A DNA stretch of 12,967 nt, taken from a virus. The stretch lies in the UHGV virus genome UHGV-0805728. One strand, 5' to 3'. Shown one piece after another: positions 3,142 to 8,787 of the stretch; positions within the stretch are counted from its first letter, which is position 1; each line of letters starts with the position of its first letter. The notes beneath the pieces are model-generated. The model was not told the DNA's origin, did not search any database, and saw only the letters and a program-made list of their open reading frames with translations. A program made the position numbers and the translations under genes.

Positions 3142-3855
3142 TTAAGCTTCTTCGACAATTCCTGCACCCAGGATTTTTTCATTAAGCTCTTTTGCGGTTT
3201 TAATAATATTATCCACCAGACGCTTACGGGTCTTGTCTTTCACCTGAACCTCTTCGCCACCGTTCAGAGTAGTCTTCAATTGAGACAGAATATCCTGAAG
3301 TTCAACGACAGAGAATCGCTGCAGATCTTCTGAGGTAATCTCGCCGAGAGCGATCCGGACGGTCTCACCACTTTCCATCTGCAGATTCAGGAACACGGTG
3401 TGAACATCATCTTTCACACCATTTGCTTTTGCAGACTCGACAGCATGAACCAGTTCGTCCAGGGAGGTGCACTGGTGAATCTCTGGCAGACCTGCTTCAC
3501 CTAGTACCCCTTCATCACCTTTTGCCAGGAGCTTTTTCGGTTTCTGCCCGTTCTGGATACGCTGAATATTTTCATCGTCCAGAATGATAGCTCCAGTTCT
3601 AGCTGCCAGCTCCTCTCCGTCCAACCACACTTCTCCACCAGCCGTGATGGATGCGATCTCATCTTCTGTCAGCACCCCACCGTAGATTTTTCGATCAGAC
3701 GTTCGAAACGTTTTTTCCAGTAGCTGACCTGAGTATTCATGTTCACACCGTTGCCATAAGTGCCACCTTGGTAGTAGTGGAACATAAATTCTGTGTCCGG
3801 AGCCACAGTGCGTTCTTTGCAACCCAGCCATAAGATTGTCCCAGCAGAGCAGCAC
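3142..3855 (-). CDS. ClpP-like peptidase, C-terminal fold continuation plus ~175-aa extension (second frame of a frame-disrupted gene)
   Basis: ORF-track 237 aa, but the first ~48 residues (MLLCWDNLMAGLQRTHCGSGHRIYVPLLPRWHLWQRCEHEY...) look out-of-frame. From about 3712 downward the frame reads ...GGVLTEDEIASITAGGEVWLDGEELAARTGAI, which aligns without gaps to the ClpP C-terminal region (recalled E. coli ...RDRFLSAPEAVEYGLVD) once joined to ORF 3669..4187. Confidence 0.5.
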   Translation of the reverse strand: MLLCWDNLMAGLQRTHCGSGHRIYVPLLPRWHLWQRCEHEYSGQLLEKTFRTSDRKIYGGVLTEDEIASITAGGEVWLDGEELAARTGAIILDDENIQRIQNGQKPKKLLAKGDEGVLGEAGLPEIHQCTSLDELVHAVESAKANGVKDDVHTVFLNLQMESGETVRIALGEITSEDLQRFSVVELQDILSQLKTTLNGGEEVQVKDKTRKRLVDNIIKTAKELNEKILGAGIVEEA

Positions 3856-4187
3856 ATCCCTTCAGCATGTACAACAACGCTTGCCTGAGACTCGCGGAAT
3901 GCCTGTAGATATGCCATTGCAATGTGCACGCAACCACCAGGGCTATTGATGATCACCCGAATGCTTTCTTCCGGCTGAGCCATACGGATCGTCTGCAGAC
4001 GAGACATATGATCTTGTAGGTCTTCCAAGTCGTCGATATAAAGAACGTGGTCAACAACAGGTGTTGGGTAGCTATATGTCTCCATAATACCACCTGGCAT
4101 ACCAAACATTTTATTACTCATCGGTTCGAAGCCGTTCTGTTTTTCTTTCATGCCGTGTACCATGGTGCTGCGAGGTGTTAAATTCAT
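3669..4187 (-). CDS. ClpP-family serine peptidase, N-terminal and catalytic portion (first frame of a frame-disrupted gene)
   Basis: ORF-track 172 aa with IINSPGG, GMCCSAGT (Ser-motif region) and FHYYQGG (His-motif region), collinear with E. coli ClpP INSPGG...GQAASMGA...IHQPLGG from memory; ATG 4187 preceded by TAAGGACC. The frame stops before the C-terminal part of the fold. Confidence 0.7.
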   Translation of the reverse strand: MNLTPRSTMVHGMKEKQNGFEPMSNKMFGMPGGIMETYSYPTPVVDHVLYIDDLEDLQDHMSRLQTIRMAQPEESIRVIINSPGGCVHIAMAYLQAFRESQASVVVHAEGMCCSAGTILWLGCKERTVAPDTEFMFHYYQGGTYGNGVNMNTQVSYWKKRFERLIEKSTVGC

Positions 4188-4248
4188 GTGAGGTCCTTAA
4201 TGTTGGAAAATTAAAAGCGATCTATTTAAACCTGATTCTCATTTGCCT

Positions 4249-4560
4249 TTATTTGGCAATTACCATGGAATACTTGCGATTGTCAGAAGCATCACAGGTC
4301 AACGATTGCCAGTCTACCACATACCACGTGTCATTGTCAACAATTACTTTATCACCTGTTCTGTAAAAGGTGTTGCTTTCAATAACACGAGACTCAGTGA
4401 AGAATCGGTGTCTTCGCTCACGTAGTAGAGCCAAGTTGATTATATTACCACCGCTGTCCTTAATCCACACATTCTTGTATCCTTTATTTGCCAAAATTGT
4501 CTCGCCGTTATAGACAAACAGGCAGTAGATTTTATTCAATCTCTCTTGTATCGTAGCCAT
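4249..4560 (-). CDS. hypothetical protein (103 aa)
   Basis: ORF-track; ATG 4560 preceded by GAGGAGAAG and by a near-consensus promoter (4589-4617). Confidence 0.65.
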   Translation of the reverse strand: MATIQERLNKIYCLFVYNGETILANKGYKNVWIKDSGGNIINLALLRERRHRFFTESRVIESNTFYRTGDKVIVDNDTWYVVDWQSLTCDASDNRKYSMVIAK

Positions 4561-4588: not shown

Positions 4589-4617
4589 ATAATACCTAAA
4601 GCTTGTCTGTTTGTCAA
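4589..4617 (-). promoter_or_regulatory. sigma70-type (phage early-like) promoter P1: -35 TTGACA, 17-nt spacer, -10 TATTAT
   Basis: Minus strand reads TTGACA (4617-4612), aacagacaagctttagg, TATTAT (4594-4589); predicted transcription start about 4582, some 22 nt upstream of ATG 4560. Confidence 0.55.
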
Positions 4618-4661: not shown

Positions 4662-5450
4662 TTACTCGGAAACAGGAGTCCAAATACGGTTTGCACGGTC
4701 CTCAATAAGATTGAGTGCAATCTGACGACCCAGCCCAGAACGAACAACATCGTCAGGACTATCAAAGCTAATCATCCCAACTTCAGGATCTGGATGTCGT
4801 GTAAAGAAATCTGTCACCCATGCAAGGCCAGATTTACCAGGGATGTCTCGTTGGCTATTGTCCCCCATAATTACAAGGGTGGCCTGATCGGAAATCCTTG
4901 TGATAATTGACAACATTTCTTCAGGGTTAGTTTGCTGTGCCTCGTCAATTAGGACAAAGCATCGTTCATCGAAACTACGACCACGAATGCTTTCAACTTC
5001 ACAAATCTCGATACGGCTGTTCTGACCGTCTCCCAGCATTGCTGCAAAAGCACCTTTGCCAACACGACGACAAATCGTGTCCATCATACTCCGAAGATAG
5101 GGCCACAGTTTCTGCATTGCATTCCCTGGTTTAAATCCTGAAGTCTTTCCTGTCTGAACGTAAGGGCGTGCAACAATGATCTTATCAATCTCGTTTTTAC
5201 GTAACAGATCTCCTGCATAGGCAGATGCCATAAATGTCTTACCAGACCCAAACACACCGTTTACGATAATAATCTTACGTGACCCTAAATAATCAAGATA
5301 CTTTTGCTGCTTCTTATTCATCGGTCGGAGAGCTGGAGCGGTGTGCTCTCGTTCGTCAGCAAATTTCTCAGCAGCTTTACGCAAACGATCAGATTTACGA
5401 GCCTCTCTGGCTTCATCACGCATGCGTTTTGTTTCTTTAGCTCGACCCAT
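4662..5450 (-). CDS. phoH: PhoH-like ATPase (262 aa) with a ~43-aa charged N-terminal extension
   Basis: Walker A GVFGSGKT, Walker B FVLIDEAQ, and GDNSQRD, typical of PhoH-family proteins; ATG 5450 preceded by AAAGGAG. Confidence 0.9.
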   Translation of the reverse strand: MGRAKETKRMRDEAREARKSDRLRKAAEKFADEREHTAPALRPMNKKQQKYLDYLGSRKIIIVNGVFGSGKTFMASAYAGDLLRKNEIDKIIVARPYVQTGKTSGFKPGNAMQKLWPYLRSMMDTICRRVGKGAFAAMLGDGQNSRIEICEVESIRGRSFDERCFVLIDEAQQTNPEEMLSIITRISDQATLVIMGDNSQRDIPGKSGLAWVTDFFTRHPDPEVGMISFDSPDDVVRSGLGRQIALNLIEDRANRIWTPVSE

Positions 5451-5488
5451 GGTGGGACTCCTTTCAGATTGAGATGTGTCTGGAACTT

Positions 5489-5839
5489 TTACTGCAACAG
5501 TTTTTCAATAGCCGCTTCCATGCTGCTTGCAACAGCCTGAACTCGGATATTCATCTCTTCTTGGTGGATCAGCTCCTTAAGCTCTTTAACGGTAAATTCC
5601 TTAGAGAAACCTTCCACCATAATATTGTGTAAGGCTTCTTGCGTGTCTACTTGCAAGAACTTCTCCAGTTTGTTGGCAGAGGCTTCTAAATCAGCCCGAA
5701 TACGAGGATCATCTGTGCGATTCAGCATTAGGCGCAAGCCATCGAGATTAGTAGAAATAGCGTCAGCATGTTGAGTAACTAGCCGTGGCAAAATGAGATC
5801 TACAAACTTATTAGCCAAATCAATACGTTCTTGTGTCAC
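5489..5839 (-). CDS. hypothetical protein (116 aa), predicted helical
   Basis: ORF-track; GTG start at 5839 preceded by GAGGGGG and overlapping the TGA of the 37-aa Lys-rich ORF (GTGA). Confidence 0.6.
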   Translation of the reverse strand: MTQERIDLANKFVDLILPRLVTQHADAISTNLDGLRLMLNRTDDPRIRADLEASANKLEKFLQVDTQEALHNIMVEGFSKEFTVKELKELIHQEEMNIRVQAVASSMEAAIEKLLQ

Positions 5840-5949
5840 TGTTGCACCCCCTCTTCGTCCTCATGATGTTTCTTTTCACGCTTGTGTTTTTTCTTAAGCT
5901 CAAGCGCAATCTCTTTTTTGTACGCCTTCTTCAAGGCCTTTTTAGCCAT
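5836..5949 (-). CDS. small Lys-rich basic peptide (37 aa)
   Basis: ATG at 5949 preceded by AGAGGGGG and by consensus promoter P2; product MAKKALKKAYKKEIALELKKKHKREKKHHEDEEGVQQ. Not in ORF track (under 60 aa). Confidence 0.4.
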   Translation of the reverse strand: MAKKALKKAYKKEIALELKKKHKREKKHHEDEEGVQQ

Positions 5950-5980
5950 TTGGCACCCCCTCTGCTTTCATTTTACGATA

Positions 5981-6010
5981 ATTATACCCGTCTAAACAAA
6001 GCTTTGTCAA
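5981..6010 (-). promoter_or_regulatory. sigma70-type (phage early-like) promoter P2: -35 TTGACA, 18-nt spacer, -10 TATAAT
   Basis: Minus strand reads TTGACA (6010-6005), aagctttgtttagacggg, TATAAT (5986-5981), starting 4 nt after the nrdG stop; predicted transcription start about 5974, upstream of ATG 5949. Confidence 0.6.
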
Positions 6011-6013
6011 CAA

Positions 6014-6487
6014 TTAGTCTACCTGAACCCACCCACCTGCTACTTTTTTAAACATTCTTTGGTTATCGCTTCCTCGGAACGGTTTCTTGGTTGGCAAATC
6101 TTTTATATACTTACCATCAATGATGATATCAGCCAGTTTAAGAACATCACTAGAGATATGGTCAAATGTGAACCCAGTATACACAAGAATAGTTTTCTTG
6201 TCACCAAATTTTTCCTTAATTTTCTCCATCAGGCCAATAATACCTGGCTCATTATAGTATGCCAAGGGTTCTCCACCCAGCAGAGAGATACCGCACACAG
6301 ACGGGTTGTCCAAATCTGACAAGATTTTTTGCAAGTCTTCCTCGGTGAACTCTCTCCCCTTATCTTTTGACCAAAATGCCTGATTAAAGCAACCAGGGCA
6401 AGCGTGTGGGCACCCAGATACCCACAAGGCAGTTCTAATACCTGGCCCTTCGGTGTAAGATATTTCTGTGTATCCGGCAATGTTCAT
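6014..6487 (-). CDS. nrdG: anaerobic ribonucleotide reductase activating protein (radical-SAM activase), 157 aa from ATG 6487
   Basis: Cys cluster GCPHACPGCFN characteristic of NrdG-type activases; the ATG at 6487 has an ACGGAG ribosome-binding site and an ATGA overlap with the upstream small ORF. The ORF-track start at 6505 has no ribosome-binding site. Confidence 0.85.
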   Translation of the reverse strand: MNIAGYTEISYTEGPGIRTALWVSGCPHACPGCFNQAFWSKDKGREFTEEDLQKILSDLDNPSVCGISLLGGEPLAYYNEPGIIGLMEKIKEKFGDKKTILVYTGFTFDHISSDVLKLADIIIDGKYIKDLPTKKPFRGSDNQRMFKKVAGGWVQVD

Positions 6488-6600
6488 AGATACTCCGTAC
6501 CACATTCAGGGCAATACCAAATAAAATCATCCAGCGCCTTGCACCAACGAAGATTACAATGACAACCGCACTTGCAAATTTTATAAATACCTGTAGACAT
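6484..6600 (-). CDS. small Cys-rich zinc-ribbon-like protein (38 aa)
   Basis: ATG 6600 preceded by GAGG at about 8 nt; product MSTGIYKICKCGCHCNLRWCKALDDFIWYCPECGTEYL with 7 Cys (CKCGCHC...CPEC); stop overlaps the nrdG ATG (ATGA). Not in ORF track (under 60 aa). Confidence 0.4.
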   Translation of the reverse strand: MSTGIYKICKCGCHCNLRWCKALDDFIWYCPECGTEYL

Positions 6601-6630
6601 ACTGCACCTCATAGTTCACTGTGTATCAAC

Positions 6631-6663: not shown

Positions 6664-6903
6664 TCAGCAACCACAACTTCCATAGTGCTTAACTCGCTCG
6701 ATAACTTCAGCTTGCTTGCCTCTATTGTAAGGACGTGAGTTAGGACTGGAAAGGTATCCAGACACACGTCGAATTACACTGATCGTTCCCTCTTCGTGGT
6801 TTCCACAGTCTGGACATACAAAGCCTTTAGCTGTCGCGCTGAACTCACCAGAGAAACCACACTTGAGACATTTATCCACGGGCTGGTTAATACCAAAATA
6901 CAT
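6664..6903 (-). CDS. nrdD: anaerobic ribonucleotide reductase NrdD, C-terminal glycyl-radical/zinc-ribbon segment (third frame piece)
   Basis: YFGINQPVDKCLKCGFSGEF...CPDCGNH...RRVSGYL matches the recalled E. coli NrdD C-terminus (YMGINVPVDRCFECGFTGEF...CPKCGNH...RRVCGYLG); its frame is open only from 6909 and overlaps the central ORF. Confidence 0.8.
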   Translation of the reverse strand: MYFGINQPVDKCLKCGFSGEFSATAKGFVCPDCGNHEEGTISVIRRVSGYLSSPNSRPYNRGKQAEVIERVKHYGSCGC

Positions 6904-8555
6904 AATGTGTTATACCCGAAGTCAACAAGAGCCTCTAAAGCATCCAGGTTGTTTTTCAGGTTAGGTGTCTCTATGTATCCAATGTTGCCACCAGAGGAGA
7001 TCATAGCAAAACCTTCTTCATACTTCCACTTATCAAAAGGTGAACTATTGATCCATACTGGTTGGTGGAAACTGTTGGTGATATATTCATGCTCGTGCTT
7101 CAATACCTCAGGATATTCACGATCCAGACAGGTTGCAGCTTTGTAGCATAAGCTTTCAGAAGGGGTGCCGTACAAGCTGAATGCTAGACCACTTTCCTTT
7201 TTGTACCGATCACAAGCATCTTTCATGTGCTGAAGGATTCCAAGAGCTAAAGCCTTGTCTCCCTCTCTCCCCAAAATCTGACAGGTTTCATACACACCAA
7301 TATACCCAATACTGATGGAAGCGTACCCGTCATAGAAGAGTTTATCAATACTCTCTTCAGGATCCAAGCGAGCAAGAGCGCCTTCACACCACATGATGGG
7401 GTTCTGACCTGCCTTTGTCCCTTTTAGGCGGTTAACCCTTACAAGGTGAGCTTCATATGCCAAATCCAGATACTCGTCAAGAACGGTAAAGAAGTCAACA
7501 CCTTCTGTTTTAGCTTTTGCTGCAATCATTGGTAGGTTGAGGCTAACAACACCCAAGTTGAATCTGCCGAGGTATTTCTCCTCACCTGTTTCTAAGTCAT
7601 TGTATTTGCTAAGAAAACTCCGGCAACCCATGCTCGTTACTTTGCCATCTGTAGAACCTGTCACCTTACGATTTAGCGGAACAGAAACAAAGTCAGGATA
7701 AATTCGCTCTGCAGAGCATTCCAGAGCTAATCGTTTCAAATCATAGTTAGGATCCTCAGGGTTCATGTTGACACCCTCTTCTAAGAAGAACAGCACTTTA
7801 GGGAACACAGGTGTGATCCGTTCTTCACCAAGACCCATTTTGTGGACTTTCAGGTAGTTTTTGGTAATCATTCTACCAAATACCGAGGTATCAAGTCCTA
7901 AACTTAATGTTATGAACGGAGTTTGCCCGTTGACAGAAGTTAATGTGTTGATTTGATAAAGCAACGTCTGCATACTGTCAAACACGTCTTTATCGGTCAT
8001 CTGCATTGCAACGCCTTCAGCATCCGGCAACCAATGCTCCTGACAAAATTTAAGGTTCTTCTCATAGGTAGCTTCAGCATACTGTGCCAGATAATGATCA
8101 ATATGGCTCATAGTCTGACCACCATATTGAGCACTAGCCACTGCACTAGAGATTTGGCTAAGGATTGTTGTTGCAACCCCTATTGACTTAGGCTTGCTGA
8201 CATGGGCGTTACCAATGTTGAATCCGTTTTCCAGCATATCTGGATAATTTACCAAACAACAGTTTGTTAGAGGGCTGATCAGATAGTCAAGATCATGTAC
8301 ATGGATGAAGCCTTTTATTGTGCTCTTCGGAGACACGGTCTGGCAGGATCTGTGTTGATGCAAGGTGTTTGCTAAGGATGCCTGCAAGCAGGTCACGATG
8401 AGTGTGTACATGATTGGTAGGCTTATTTGCGTTTTCTTTTGTAAATTCATCACAAGTGCGATCCAAGAAGCCACTAATATCTGCAAGAAGTTTTCCACCT
8501 GCCTCTCTGTTATTATCCCTTGTCTGTCTGTATTGGATGTATTCTCTGGCTGCAC
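6774..8555 (-). CDS. nrdD: anaerobic ribonucleotide reductase NrdD, central catalytic segment (second frame piece)
   Basis: From about 8315 the frame reads KGFIHVHDLDY...NIGNAHVSKPKSIG...QYGGQT, collinear with recalled E. coli NrdD (GDIHYHDLDY...MGNAEIEPPKSIS...IYGGTT). The first ~80 and last ~43 residues of the 593-aa ORF look out-of-frame. Confidence 0.85.
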   Translation of the reverse strand: MQPENTSNTDRQGIITERQVENFLQILVASWIALVMNLQKKTQISLPIMYTLIVTCLQASLANTLHQHRSCQTVSPKSTIKGFIHVHDLDYLISPLTNCCLVNYPDMLENGFNIGNAHVSKPKSIGVATTILSQISSAVASAQYGGQTMSHIDHYLAQYAEATYEKNLKFCQEHWLPDAEGVAMQMTDKDVFDSMQTLLYQINTLTSVNGQTPFITLSLGLDTSVFGRMITKNYLKVHKMGLGEERITPVFPKVLFFLEEGVNMNPEDPNYDLKRLALECSAERIYPDFVSVPLNRKVTGSTDGKVTSMGCRSFLSKYNDLETGEEKYLGRFNLGVVSLNLPMIAAKAKTEGVDFFTVLDEYLDLAYEAHLVRVNRLKGTKAGQNPIMWCEGALARLDPEESIDKLFYDGYASISIGYIGVYETCQILGREGDKALALGILQHMKDACDRYKKESGLAFSLYGTPSESLCYKAATCLDREYPEVLKHEHEYITNSFHQPVWINSSPFDKWKYEEGFAMISSGGNIGYIETPNLKNNLDALEALVDFGYNTLCILVLTSPWINVSSVVSLVSSARQLKALYVQTVETTKRERSV

Positions 8556-8787
8556 ATTTTAAACCCATATCCATAAGAGCATCTTCAACAAGGATATGGA
8601 TATTTTTTACAGAGATTGTGCCCTGATCGGCTGGTAGATTGTTAGCAACAGCTTCATTAACCGCGCAGGCGATCCGGTAAGCTTCTTCTTCAGTATGTCC
8701 AGACTCAAGTAAGGCGGACTCTGCCGCCTTGATCACCTTAATTCCGTTATAGACCTCTTCTCTACCGTCTCGTTTTACAACTTTCAC
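8293..8787 (-). CDS. nrdD: anaerobic ribonucleotide reductase NrdD, N-terminal ATP-cone segment (first frame piece)
   Basis: MKVVKRDGREEVY... and ENANKPTNHVHTHRDLLAGILSKH match the NrdD N-terminus (recalled E. coli NENANKDSKVIPTQRDLLAGIVAKH); ATG 8787 overlaps the nrdC stop (ATGA); frame ends at 8293 right after an A4 run. Confidence 0.8.
   Translation of the reverse strand: MKVVKRDGREEVYNGIKVIKAAESALLESGHTEEEAYRIACAVNEAVANNLPADQGTISVKNIHILVEDALMDMGLKCAAREYIQYRQTRDNNREAGGKLLADISGFLDRTCDEFTKENANKPTNHVHTHRDLLAGILSKHLASTQILPDRVSEEHNKRLHPCT

What the first reader, a model, noticed from the sequence alone, without database searches (positions are those of the whole stretch)
5836..6010. Consensus promoter P2 driving a 37-aa poly-Lys peptide upstream of phoH
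TTGACA-18-TATAAT is a perfect match in both hexamers and starts 4 nt after the nrdG stop. The first ORF downstream is a 37-aa peptide with 15 Lys/Arg (MAKKALKKAYKKEIALELKKKHKREKKHHEDEEGVQQ), a good ribosome-binding site, and a GTGA overlap with the next gene. It could be a nucleic-acid-binding peptide or simply a leader ORF for translational coupling.
Basis: seen in the sequence. Interest (0 to 1): 0.5.

Follow-up and report, generated by a model that had tools for sequence, protein, structure and literature searches.

The report
Known small phage gene with promoter
The flagged stretch is a real, strongly conserved 37-residue basic protein gene with its own host-type promoter in an rV5-like E. 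coli phage; both were already annotated in the type phage rV5 (gene 118, promoter P118), and the protein's function is still unknown.

Summary
On the minus strand, TTGACA-18-TATAAT (6010..5981) is the only 12/12 promoter match in the window. It is followed by a strong ribosome-binding site and a 37-codon ORF (5949..5836) whose stop overlaps the next start (GTGA).

Two details are wrong. The peptide has 13 Lys/Arg, not 15. The next gene is a 116-aa helical protein (5839..5489), not phoH, which is the third gene.

The window comes from a Vequintavirus (rV5-like myovirus). The ORF is rV5 gene 118 and the promoter is rV5 P118, both published in 2013. The peptide belongs to PHROG family 7670.

Homologues of 37-52 aa occur in Seunavirus, Mydovirus, Henunavirus and metagenomic relatives, always immediately upstream of the same helical protein (phrog_7650). 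Residues 1-19 are nearly invariant while third codon positions are scrambled, so the ORF encodes a functional protein and is not a mere leader. Across Vequintavirus genomes the promoter hexamers never vary while the spacer does. Several other lineages have the gene without the promoter.

No fold, family or literature result gives a function. The best inference is a basic helical subunit that pairs with the acidic downstream protein.

Verdict: ordinary, already annotated, low to moderate interest.

The parts
6005..6010 (-). -35 hexamer TTGACA of promoter (rV5 P118 equivalent)
   Evidence: Invariant in 6 Vequintavirus sequences. Listed as P118 in rV5 Table S4.
5981..5986 (-). -10 hexamer TATAAT, 18 nt after the -35
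5973..5975 (-). Expected transcript start (inferred, about 7 nt after the -10)
   Evidence: Inference from the usual spacing of sigma70 promoters. No experimental data.
5953..5963 (-). Ribosome-binding block AGAGGGGGTGC of the peptide gene
   Evidence: The equivalent in Murica is AGAGGAGGTGC.
5836..5949 (-). 37-aa basic protein gene (rV5 gene 118 family, phrog_7670)
   Evidence: phrog_7670 E 2e-20. Annotated CDS in Murica, Gotham and JeffSchatz. Homologues in other genera. Codon analysis. Predicted helix.
5844..5854 (-). Second copy of AGAGGGGGTGC: ribosome-binding site of the next gene, lying inside the last codons of the peptide gene
5489..5839 (-). 116-aa acidic four-helix protein (rV5 gene 119 family, phrog_7650), GTG start overlapping the peptide stop
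   Evidence: phrog_7650 E 5.5e-57. AF2 pLDDT 94.5, four helices. Always follows the peptide gene.
4662..5450 (-). PhoH-like ATPase gene, third gene downstream of the promoter
   Evidence: Pfam PhoH E 3.6e-47
6014..6487 (-). nrdG (anaerobic ribonucleotide reductase activase), the upstream neighbour. Its stop is 3 nt before the -35.
   Evidence: Pfam Fer4_12 E 4.4e-42. 157-aa annotation in relatives.

Best explanation
The stretch is an ordinary early/middle transcription unit of an rV5-like phage.

- Promoter: a host sigma70-type promoter (the equivalent of rV5 P118) adds transcription initiating just after nrdG.
- First product: a genuine, translated 37-residue protein (rV5 gp118 family).
- What is shown: the ORF is protein-coding and under purifying selection. 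The N-terminal 19 residues (M-[AS]-K-K-x-L-[KR]-K-A-Y-x-K-E-[IL]-A-x-x-L-[KR]) are conserved on all faces of a predicted helix. A polybasic stretch and then an acidic tail follow. The gene is always tightly joined (overlap, or a gap of at most 10 nt) to the gene for an acidic four-helix protein (gp119 family).
- What is inferred: the peptide is made together with gp119 and docks on it through its conserved helix. The polybasic segment then contacts nucleic acid or another anionic partner. The pair acts in the nucleotide-metabolism/PhoH gene block rather than in the virion.
- Role of the promoter: it raises expression in Vequintavirus, Mydovirus and some relatives. It is dispensable for the module, because other lineages transcribe the gene from upstream.
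For: - Identity of the phage and region: 122 phage records match at 90-99%.
- Prior annotation: CDS annotated in Murica, Gotham and JeffSchatz. It is rV5 gene 118 (37 aa, 4482 Da, pI 9.8) and P118 has the same hexamers.
- Family membership: phrog_7670 E 2e-20.
- Homologues: 29 clusters of 37-52 aa in the word-indexed search. A full HMMER scan of 1.84 billion representatives found 8 clusters, all 32-49 aa and with no fusions.
- Coding signal: codon positions 1/2/3 differ by 0.20/0.16/0.51; mean pS 0.70 against pN 0.17.
- Constant neighbour: phrog_7650 follows in every one of 12 lineages examined.
- Charge pattern: peptide net +5 to +7, partner pI 4.6-5.6 in all 10 pairs.
- Structure: peptide predicted as a helix, pLDDT about 90 for residues 1-20. 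Partner model pLDDT 94.5.
- Promoter constraint: 0 of 12 hexamer positions vary against 11 of 18 spacer positions, p = 5.8e-4.
- Related promoters: TTGACA-17-TATGAT in KB57 and TTGACA-17-TAAGAT in L014. The TGTTGAC(N19)TATAAT form matches the putative early promoter of Certrevirus (PMC7344957).
Against: - No transcript, protein or phenotype data exist for this gene in any phage that I could find.
- The peptide-gp119 complex is inferred only from gene linkage and charge.
- Synteny inside one phage subfamily is weak evidence, because whole genomes there are collinear.
- gp118 and gp119 carry no 'MS evidence' tag in the rV5 gene table, Additional file 3. This fits a non-structural role, but a Lys-rich 4.5-kDa peptide is hard to detect anyway.
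- The promoter is absent in PVP-SE1, L018, Hena1, L016 and L022, so it is not a defining part of the module.
- Fold searches of gp119 returned only generic helical bundles.
Confidence: 0.6

Rival explanations
1. The peptide is a functional small protein that acts on its own. It would be a host-directed or nucleic-acid-binding factor, for example binding RNA/DNA or a host enzyme through its basic helix, with the acidic tail as an internal counter-charge. Linkage to gp119 would then be only operon packing.
For: - Strong basic-head/acidic-tail pattern conserved in 10 lineages.
- Residues 6-18 are conserved on all helix faces.
- Strong promoter and ribosome-binding site suggest abundance.
- gp119 has its own ribosome-binding site.
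Against: - The peptide gene is never found without the phrog_7650 gene directly after it.
- No similarity to any known nucleic-acid-binding or inhibitor family.
Confidence: 0.25
2. The ORF is only a leader: its translation serves to load ribosomes onto, or regulate, the downstream gene, and the peptide itself has no role.
For: GTGA stop/start overlap. Very short ORF. Tight junctions in all relatives.
Against: - The amino-acid sequence is conserved across genera while synonymous sites are saturated.
- Lys-to-Arg replacements keep the charge.
- The downstream gene has its own copy of the same 11-nt ribosome-binding block.
- No Rfam hit. The RNA fold is no better than shuffles, z = -0.7. No terminator lies between the genes.
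Confidence: 0.05
3. The peptide is a lysis accessory: a cationic membrane-active peptide acting with the endolysin. This is suggested because in most other genera the pair sits directly before the endolysin gene.
For: In Seunavirus, Mydovirus, Henunavirus and metagenomic relatives the order is peptide, phrog_7650, endolysin, PhoH. The endolysin slot persists even when a GH19 enzyme is replaced by an M15 peptidase.
Against: - Hydrophobic moment 0.28-0.38 and mean hydrophobicity about 0, against 0.5-0.8 and 0.2-0.8 for LL-37, magainin, cecropin and melittin.
- No endolysin at this locus in the window or in rV5, whose lysin is gp89 elsewhere.
- Rz/Rz1 spanins are reported for rV5 and PVP-SE1 (PMC7344957).
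- gp119 has no membrane segment.
Confidence: 0.05
4. Chance: the promoter match and the short ORF are coincidental and not functional.
For: Consensus scans give many false hits: 34 found against 25 expected in shuffles. ORFs of 37 codons are common.
Against: - An exact 12/12 match is expected about 0.005 times per window (my arithmetic). With one mismatch allowed, 0.09 are expected.
- Hexamers are conserved against a variable spacer.
- The ORF is conserved as protein across genera.
Confidence: 0.02

Closest known systems
Escherichia phage rV5 gene 118 and promoter P118 (Kropinski et al. 2013, PMC3606486; GenBank locus tag rv5_gp113)
   Same: Same 37-aa ORF size and same position after nrdG and before a 116-aa ORF and PhoH. 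Same TTGACA-18-TATAAT hexamers (rV5 site: TTGACAAAGCTTTGTTAAGTTGGTTATAAT).
   Different: Five spacer substitutions. rV5 has about 390 extra bases between nrdD and nrdG. No function was assigned there either.
Salmonella phage PVP-SE1 gene 144 (46 aa) with gene 145; PHROG families 7670 and 7650
   Same: Homologous peptide with the same N-terminal motif, followed at 8 nt by the homologous helical protein. The PVP-SE1 record already notes the similarity to rV5.
   Different: - PVP-SE1 has a longer C-terminal part (a second short helix, LMQLVADAAARGNY).
- It has no promoter of its own: the ATG directly follows the nrdG stop.
- An endolysin gene lies between the pair and PhoH.
Putative sigma70-like early promoter of Certrevirus, AAAA(N3)TGTTGAC(N19)TATAAT (PMC7344957)
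   Same: The window site reads TGTTGAC-N19-TATAAT exactly. P121 in the window (4617..4589) also has TTGTTGACAAA.
   Different: No clear A-tract UP element upstream in the window. The Certrevirus sites were themselves only predicted.
Phage phiKT gp28 'disruptin' and cationic antimicrobial peptides (from my own knowledge of Holt et al. 2021, J Bacteriol; not read here)
   Same: A small, highly cationic, helical phage-encoded peptide.
   Different: The window peptide has a much lower hydrophobic moment and hydrophobicity. It has an acidic tail. The phage has spanins. There is no lysis gene at this locus in the window.
J-domain helix II (DnaJ: IRKAYKRLAMKYHPD)
   Same: Local resemblance of LRKAYQKELAMAL to the basic helix II. 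A human J-domain chain (2ej7) was among the three weak PDB sequence hits.
   Different: E = 1.9, so not significant. No HPD motif. The Pfam DnaJ model matches none of the 29 family members. This is a resemblance only.

Membership tests
Sigma70-type promoter | -35 hexamer close to TTGACA | tested here: met
   TTGACA 6010..6005, 6/6
Sigma70-type promoter | -10 hexamer close to TATAAT, 16-18 nt downstream | tested here: met
   TATAAT 5986..5981, 6/6, spacer 18
Sigma70-type promoter | Intergenic, co-oriented with and upstream of a gene | tested here: met
   Lies between the nrdG stop (6014) and the peptide ATG (5949), same strand
Sigma70-type promoter | Hexamers conserved more than surrounding non-coding sequence in relatives | tested here: met
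   0/12 hexamer positions variable against 11/18 spacer positions in 6 Vequintavirus sequences, p = 5.8e-4. Weaker versions in KB57 and L014. Absent in PVP-SE1, L018, Hena1, L016 and L022.
Sigma70-type promoter | Mapped transcript start / RNA polymerase binding | not testable with these tools
   No Vequintavirus transcriptome found in the library
rV5 gp118 / PVP-SE1 gp144 small protein family (phrog_7670) | Significant match to the family profile | tested here: met
   E 2e-20, residues 1-37 on profile 1-37 of 46
rV5 gp118 / PVP-SE1 gp144 small protein family (phrog_7670) | N-terminal motif M-x-K-K-x-L-[KR]-K-A-Y-x-K-E-[IL]-A-x-x-L | tested here: met
   Invariant M1 L6 K8 A9 K12 E13 A15 L18, and Y10 in over 90% of 29 sequences
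rV5 gp118 / PVP-SE1 gp144 small protein family (phrog_7670) | Gene directly upstream of a phrog_7650 gene (overlap, or a gap of at most 10 nt) | tested here: met
   GTGA overlap in the window. Same arrangement in 12 lineages.
Regulatory leader peptide / attenuator | Alternative RNA structures or a terminator between the leader ORF and the regulated gene | tested here: not met
   No Rfam match. Fold z = -0.7. No terminator-like site there. The genes overlap.
Regulatory leader peptide / attenuator | Peptide sequence itself unconstrained apart from regulatory codons | tested here: not met
   Strong purifying selection on residues 1-19
J-domain proteins | HPD motif after helix II, and a match to the DnaJ profile | tested here: not met
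   No HPD in any member. No Pfam DnaJ hit at E up to 10.
Cationic membrane-active lysis peptide (disruptin-like) | Strongly amphipathic helix with high hydrophobic moment | tested here: not met
   muH 0.28-0.38 and mean hydrophobicity -0.2 to 0.1, against 0.52-0.78 and 0.18-0.76 for four reference peptides
Cationic membrane-active lysis peptide (disruptin-like) | Phage lacks spanins; gene sits in the lysis cassette | tested here: not met
   Spanins are reported for rV5 and PVP-SE1 (PMC7344957). No lysis gene adjoins it in the window.

The most novel reading that the evidence does not exclude
The 37-52-aa peptide and the acidic four-helix protein form a two-subunit factor specific to the Vequintavirinae, with an activity not yet described. 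One possibility is a nucleic-acid-directed or host-takeover factor working alongside the PhoH-like ATPase. The all-round conserved 19-residue helix would be the docking element and the polybasic stretch the nucleic-acid handle.
Probability: 0.3. Interest if true: 0.45.

Novelty: already known. Interest (0 to 1): 0.22.

Why it matters
The result settles that this short ORF is a real gene and not a scanning artefact or a passive leader. It also shows that the promoter is under selection within the genus.

The family is a tidy example of a subfamily-wide conserved microprotein with a constant partner and no known role. Vequintavirus phages (for example BASEL phages Bas48-59) are genetically tractable, so it would make a reasonable small knockout and pull-down project. 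It does not open a long-standing question, and nothing about it would surprise a phage genomicist.

Tried and rejected
- **tblastn with the peptide:** no result, because of the low-complexity filter.
- **First profile search:** I repeated it with KB57 first.
- **IMG/VR scan with the gp119 profile:** only 6 loci.
- **Rfam on 5400-6600:** nothing. The RNA fold of the 5' UTR plus ORF is no better than shuffles.
- **Pfam, NCBIfam and PADLOC on peptide and partner:** nothing significant. Phage_TAC_19 at E 0.007 is below the cut-off.
- **PDB sequence search:**
  - Peptide profile: only weak hits at E above 1 (a GTP-binding protein, a ubiquitin-interacting motif, a J-domain helix II). I rejected them as not significant.
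  - gp119 profile: best E 0.026, to designed helical proteins.
- **Fold searches of the gp119 model:**
  - BFVD: only the family's own uncharacterised members.
  - The AFDB library was unavailable.
- **Frameshift fusion of peptide to gp119 at the A-run:** rejected by reading the frames. The -1 frame meets TGA within a few codons, and the +1 frame (seen in variant P0029) ends at TGA without joining gp119.
- **Literature:** no transcriptome or functional study of this gene found.
- **Exact look-up of the 37-aa sequence:** not in the protein collection.

Full report
**What is in the sequence**

All genes of the window run on the minus strand. Reading that strand:
- The nrdG stop TAA is at 6016..6014.
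- TTGACA lies at 6010..6005, then an 18-nt spacer, then TATAAT at 5986..5981.
- A 31-nt stretch follows, containing AGAGGGGGTGC (5963..5953).
- The ATG is at 5949 and opens a 37-codon ORF ending TGA at 5838..5836.
- That stop overlaps the GTG (5839..5837) of a 116-codon ORF (to 5489).

The translation is MAKKALKKAYKKEIALELKKKHKREKKHHEDEEGVQQ. It has 12 Lys, 1 Arg, 3 His and 7 Asp/Glu, net +6.

The consensus scan lists 34 promoter-like sites against 25.2 expected in shuffles, but this is the only 12/12 site. With one mismatch allowed it remains the only hit, against 0.09 expected. My own arithmetic gives about 0.005 exact matches per window.

Pfam identifies the neighbours as NrdD, NrdG, PhoH (5450..4662) and a ClpP-like protease. 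The gene after the peptide is therefore not phoH. It is an unannotated-family 116-aa protein, and phoH comes third.

**Where the window comes from**

Megablast of 5400-6600 finds 122 phage records at 90-99% identity, essentially all rV5-like E. coli myoviruses of the genus Vequintavirus. The best is OX460980 at 98.9%.

In Murica, Gotham and JeffSchatz the 37-aa ORF is an annotated hypothetical protein. Gotham carries a PhagePromoter prediction at the same place.

The rV5 genome paper lists gene 118 (37 aa, 4482 Da, pI 9.8), gene 119 (116 aa, pI 5.1) and PhoH as gene 120. It also lists promoter P118, TTGACAAAGCTTTGTTAAGTTGGTTATAAT, among promoters found by visual inspection (PMC3606486). In that paper's gene table neither gp118 nor gp119 carries the 'MS evidence' tag given to virion proteins. 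Both the ORF and the promoter have thus been on record since 2013.

**Is the ORF a gene?**

- **Family profiles.** The peptide matches PHROG family 7670 (E 2e-20) and the next protein matches family 7650 (E 5.5e-57). Both have unknown function.
- **Distant partner homologues.** tblastn with the 116-aa protein finds distant homologues (23-29% identity) in Klebsiella/Proteus Mydovirus and Erwinia Henunavirus.
- **Peptide in those genera.** A 46- or 49-aa ORF sits directly upstream there, with the same start: MSKKALRKAYTKELALELRGKK... in KB57 and MSKRTLRKAYQKELAMALRTTK... in Hena1.
- **Database searches.** A profile search of 5.8 billion proteins gives 29 clusters of 37-52 aa. A full HMMER pass over 1.84 billion representatives gives only 8 clusters, all 32-49 aa. 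The family is therefore narrow and never fused to a larger domain.
- **Conserved residues.** M1, L6, K8, A9, K12, E13, A15 and L18 are invariant, and Y10 is nearly so.
- **Codon test, ten diverged lineages, first 20 codons.** Codon positions 1, 2 and 3 differ in 0.20, 0.16 and 0.51 of pairwise comparisons. Mean pS is 0.70 against pN 0.17. Lys is often replaced by Arg through CGN codons, which keeps the charge.

This is the signature of a protein under purifying selection. It rules out a passive leader ORF.

**RNA-level alternatives**

Rfam finds nothing in 5400-6600. The 146-nt leader plus ORF folds no better than shuffles, z = -0.7. No terminator-like site lies between the promoter and P121 on the minus strand.

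The 11-mer AGAGGGGGTGC occurs twice, before the peptide ATG and, inside the peptide's last codons, before the gp119 GTG. The downstream gene therefore has its own strong ribosome-binding site, and the peptide's C-terminal EEGVQQ is partly dictated by it.

A frameshift fusion at the AAGAAAAAAC run does not work. The -1 frame stops almost at once, and the +1 frame (seen in the natural variant P0029) ends without joining gp119 (and direct reading).

**Context in relatives**

I examined these lineages:
- Murica, Gotham and JeffSchatz
- an IMG/VR Vequintavirus (L006)
- a divergent Vequintavirus-like lineage (L022, gp119 66% identical)
- KB57, Hena1, PVP-SE1 and pEa_SNUABM_55/56
- metagenomic contigs L014, L018, L019, L020 and L021

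In every one the peptide gene is followed by the helical protein gene, either with an overlap or with a gap of at most 10 nt.

The upstream neighbour is nrdG or glutaredoxin. Outside Vequintavirus, an endolysin gene (GH19, or an M15 peptidase in L020) lies between the pair and PhoH.

PVP-SE1 gene 144 is already annotated as similar to the rV5 peptide.

Across ten pairs the peptide is always net +5 to +7, with a head of +8 to +10 and a tail of -2 to -4. The partner is always acidic, pI 4.6-5.6.

**The promoter in relatives**

Among six Vequintavirus sequences, none of the 12 hexamer positions varies while 11 of the 18 spacer positions do (hypergeometric p = 5.8e-4). The spacing stays at 18 even in L006, whose spacer and 5' UTR are heavily substituted.

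KB57 has TTGACA-17-TATGAT and L014 has TTGACA-17-TAAGAT at the equivalent place, although the upstream gene there is glutaredoxin.

PVP-SE1, L018, Hena1, L016 and L022 have no room for, or no match to, a promoter, and there the peptide ATG abuts the upstream gene.

The window site also reads TGTTGAC-N19-TATAAT, which is the core of the putative early promoter described for Certrevirus (PMC7344957). The next intergenic promoter in the window (4617..4589, rV5 P121) shares TTGTTGACAAA.

I conclude that the promoter is very probably functional, of the early/middle host-polymerase class. It is an optional booster for the gp118-gp119-PhoH group and not a defining part of the module.

**What the proteins look like**

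- **Peptide.** AlphaFold2 with 29 sequences predicts one helix. pLDDT is about 90 for residues 1-20 and falls to 54-67 in the tail. The invariant residues lie on all faces of the helix. The hydrophobic moment (0.28-0.38) and mean hydrophobicity (about 0) are far below those of membrane-active cationic peptides.
- **Partner.** It is a confident four-helix protein, pLDDT 94.5.
- **J-domain resemblance.** A local resemblance to J-domain helix II is not significant, and the HPD motif is missing.

**Mechanism**

Three things are shown: a translated-type, conserved, basic helical microprotein; constant tight linkage to an acidic helical protein; and a conserved consensus promoter within the genus.

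The rest is inferred. The two proteins would be made together and associate through the peptide's conserved helix. The polybasic segment would bind nucleic acid or another anionic partner. The module would act in the nucleotide-metabolism/PhoH block and not in the virion or in lysis. Rz/Rz1 spanins are reported for rV5 and PVP-SE1, and the rV5 lysin is elsewhere.

Synteny within one collinear subfamily is weak evidence, so the partner model gets moderate confidence only.

**Verdict**

The promoter reading is supported, the leader-ORF reading is rejected, and the nucleic-acid-binding idea stays open.

The feature is already annotated in the type phage and catalogued as a family of unknown function, so it is not new. 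Its residual interest is as a well-defined, subfamily-wide microprotein with a fixed partner in genetically tractable phages.

Noticed in passing
window 3686, 6910, 8313: Relative to the closest relative OX460980 (98% identical), the window has three single-base indels, two of them (3686, 8313) next to T runs. They split nrdD into three frames (8787..8293, 8555..6774, 6903..6664) and the ClpP-like gene into two ORFs (4187..3669, 3855..3142). Both genes are single intact ORFs in rV5 (NrdD 707 aa, ClpP-like 349 aa); nrdD is also intact in Murica, and OX460980 has a 714-codon open stretch spanning nrdD. These are probably sequencing errors, possibly real pseudogenes.
   Followed up: partly
window 6612..6484 (-): A 42-codon (38 from the annotated start) Cys-rich ORF, MSTGIYKICKCGCHCNLRWCKALDDFIWYCPECGTEYL, overlaps the nrdG start by ATGA. 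It is annotated as a hypothetical protein in JeffSchatz (bas55_0180) and is called in the divergent lineage L022. It looks like a zinc-ribbon microprotein between nrdD and nrdG.
   Followed up: no
window 4617..4589 (-): A second intergenic consensus-like promoter, TTGACA-17-TATTAT, lies upstream of the 103-aa phrog_5456 gene. It equals rV5 P121 and shares TTGTTGACAAA and an AAGCTTT motif with the promoter under study.
   Followed up: partly
window 5893..5884 (-), the AAGAAAAAAC run in the peptide gene: The A-run is indel-prone in natural variants. P0019 has two extra Lys (+6 nt). P0029 is a -1-nt frameshift variant seen on 3 contigs, including one of 137.8 kb.
   Followed up: partly
L004, L005, L013, L014, L016, L018, L019, L020 (about 3540-4300 in most): In genera other than Vequintavirus, an endolysin gene sits between the gp119 homologue and PhoH. 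The slot is kept even when the enzyme type changes (GH19 in most, Peptidase_M15_4 in L020). It is empty in the window and in rV5.
   Followed up: partly
L022-L024 (Logan assemblies): A divergent Vequintavirus-like lineage (gp119 66% identical; peptide MAKKLLKKLYKRELAMEHKKKRKQNDKSKDYFEEEFK) has no counterpart in the 60-95% identity band of the phage collection searched. It lacks the promoter.
   Followed up: no
L004 about 2270-2300; L014 about 2955-2985: KB57 and L014 have a GC-rich stem-loop (CCGGCC...GGCCGG type) in the 5' UTR between the promoter and the ribosome-binding site of the peptide gene. It is absent from the window.
   Followed up: no
one search hit list (MG0656xx records): Nineteen records named 'Campylobacter phage' are about 95% identical to E. 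coli Vequintavirus genomes over this region. These are probably mislabelled hosts or contaminating coliphages.
   Followed up: no
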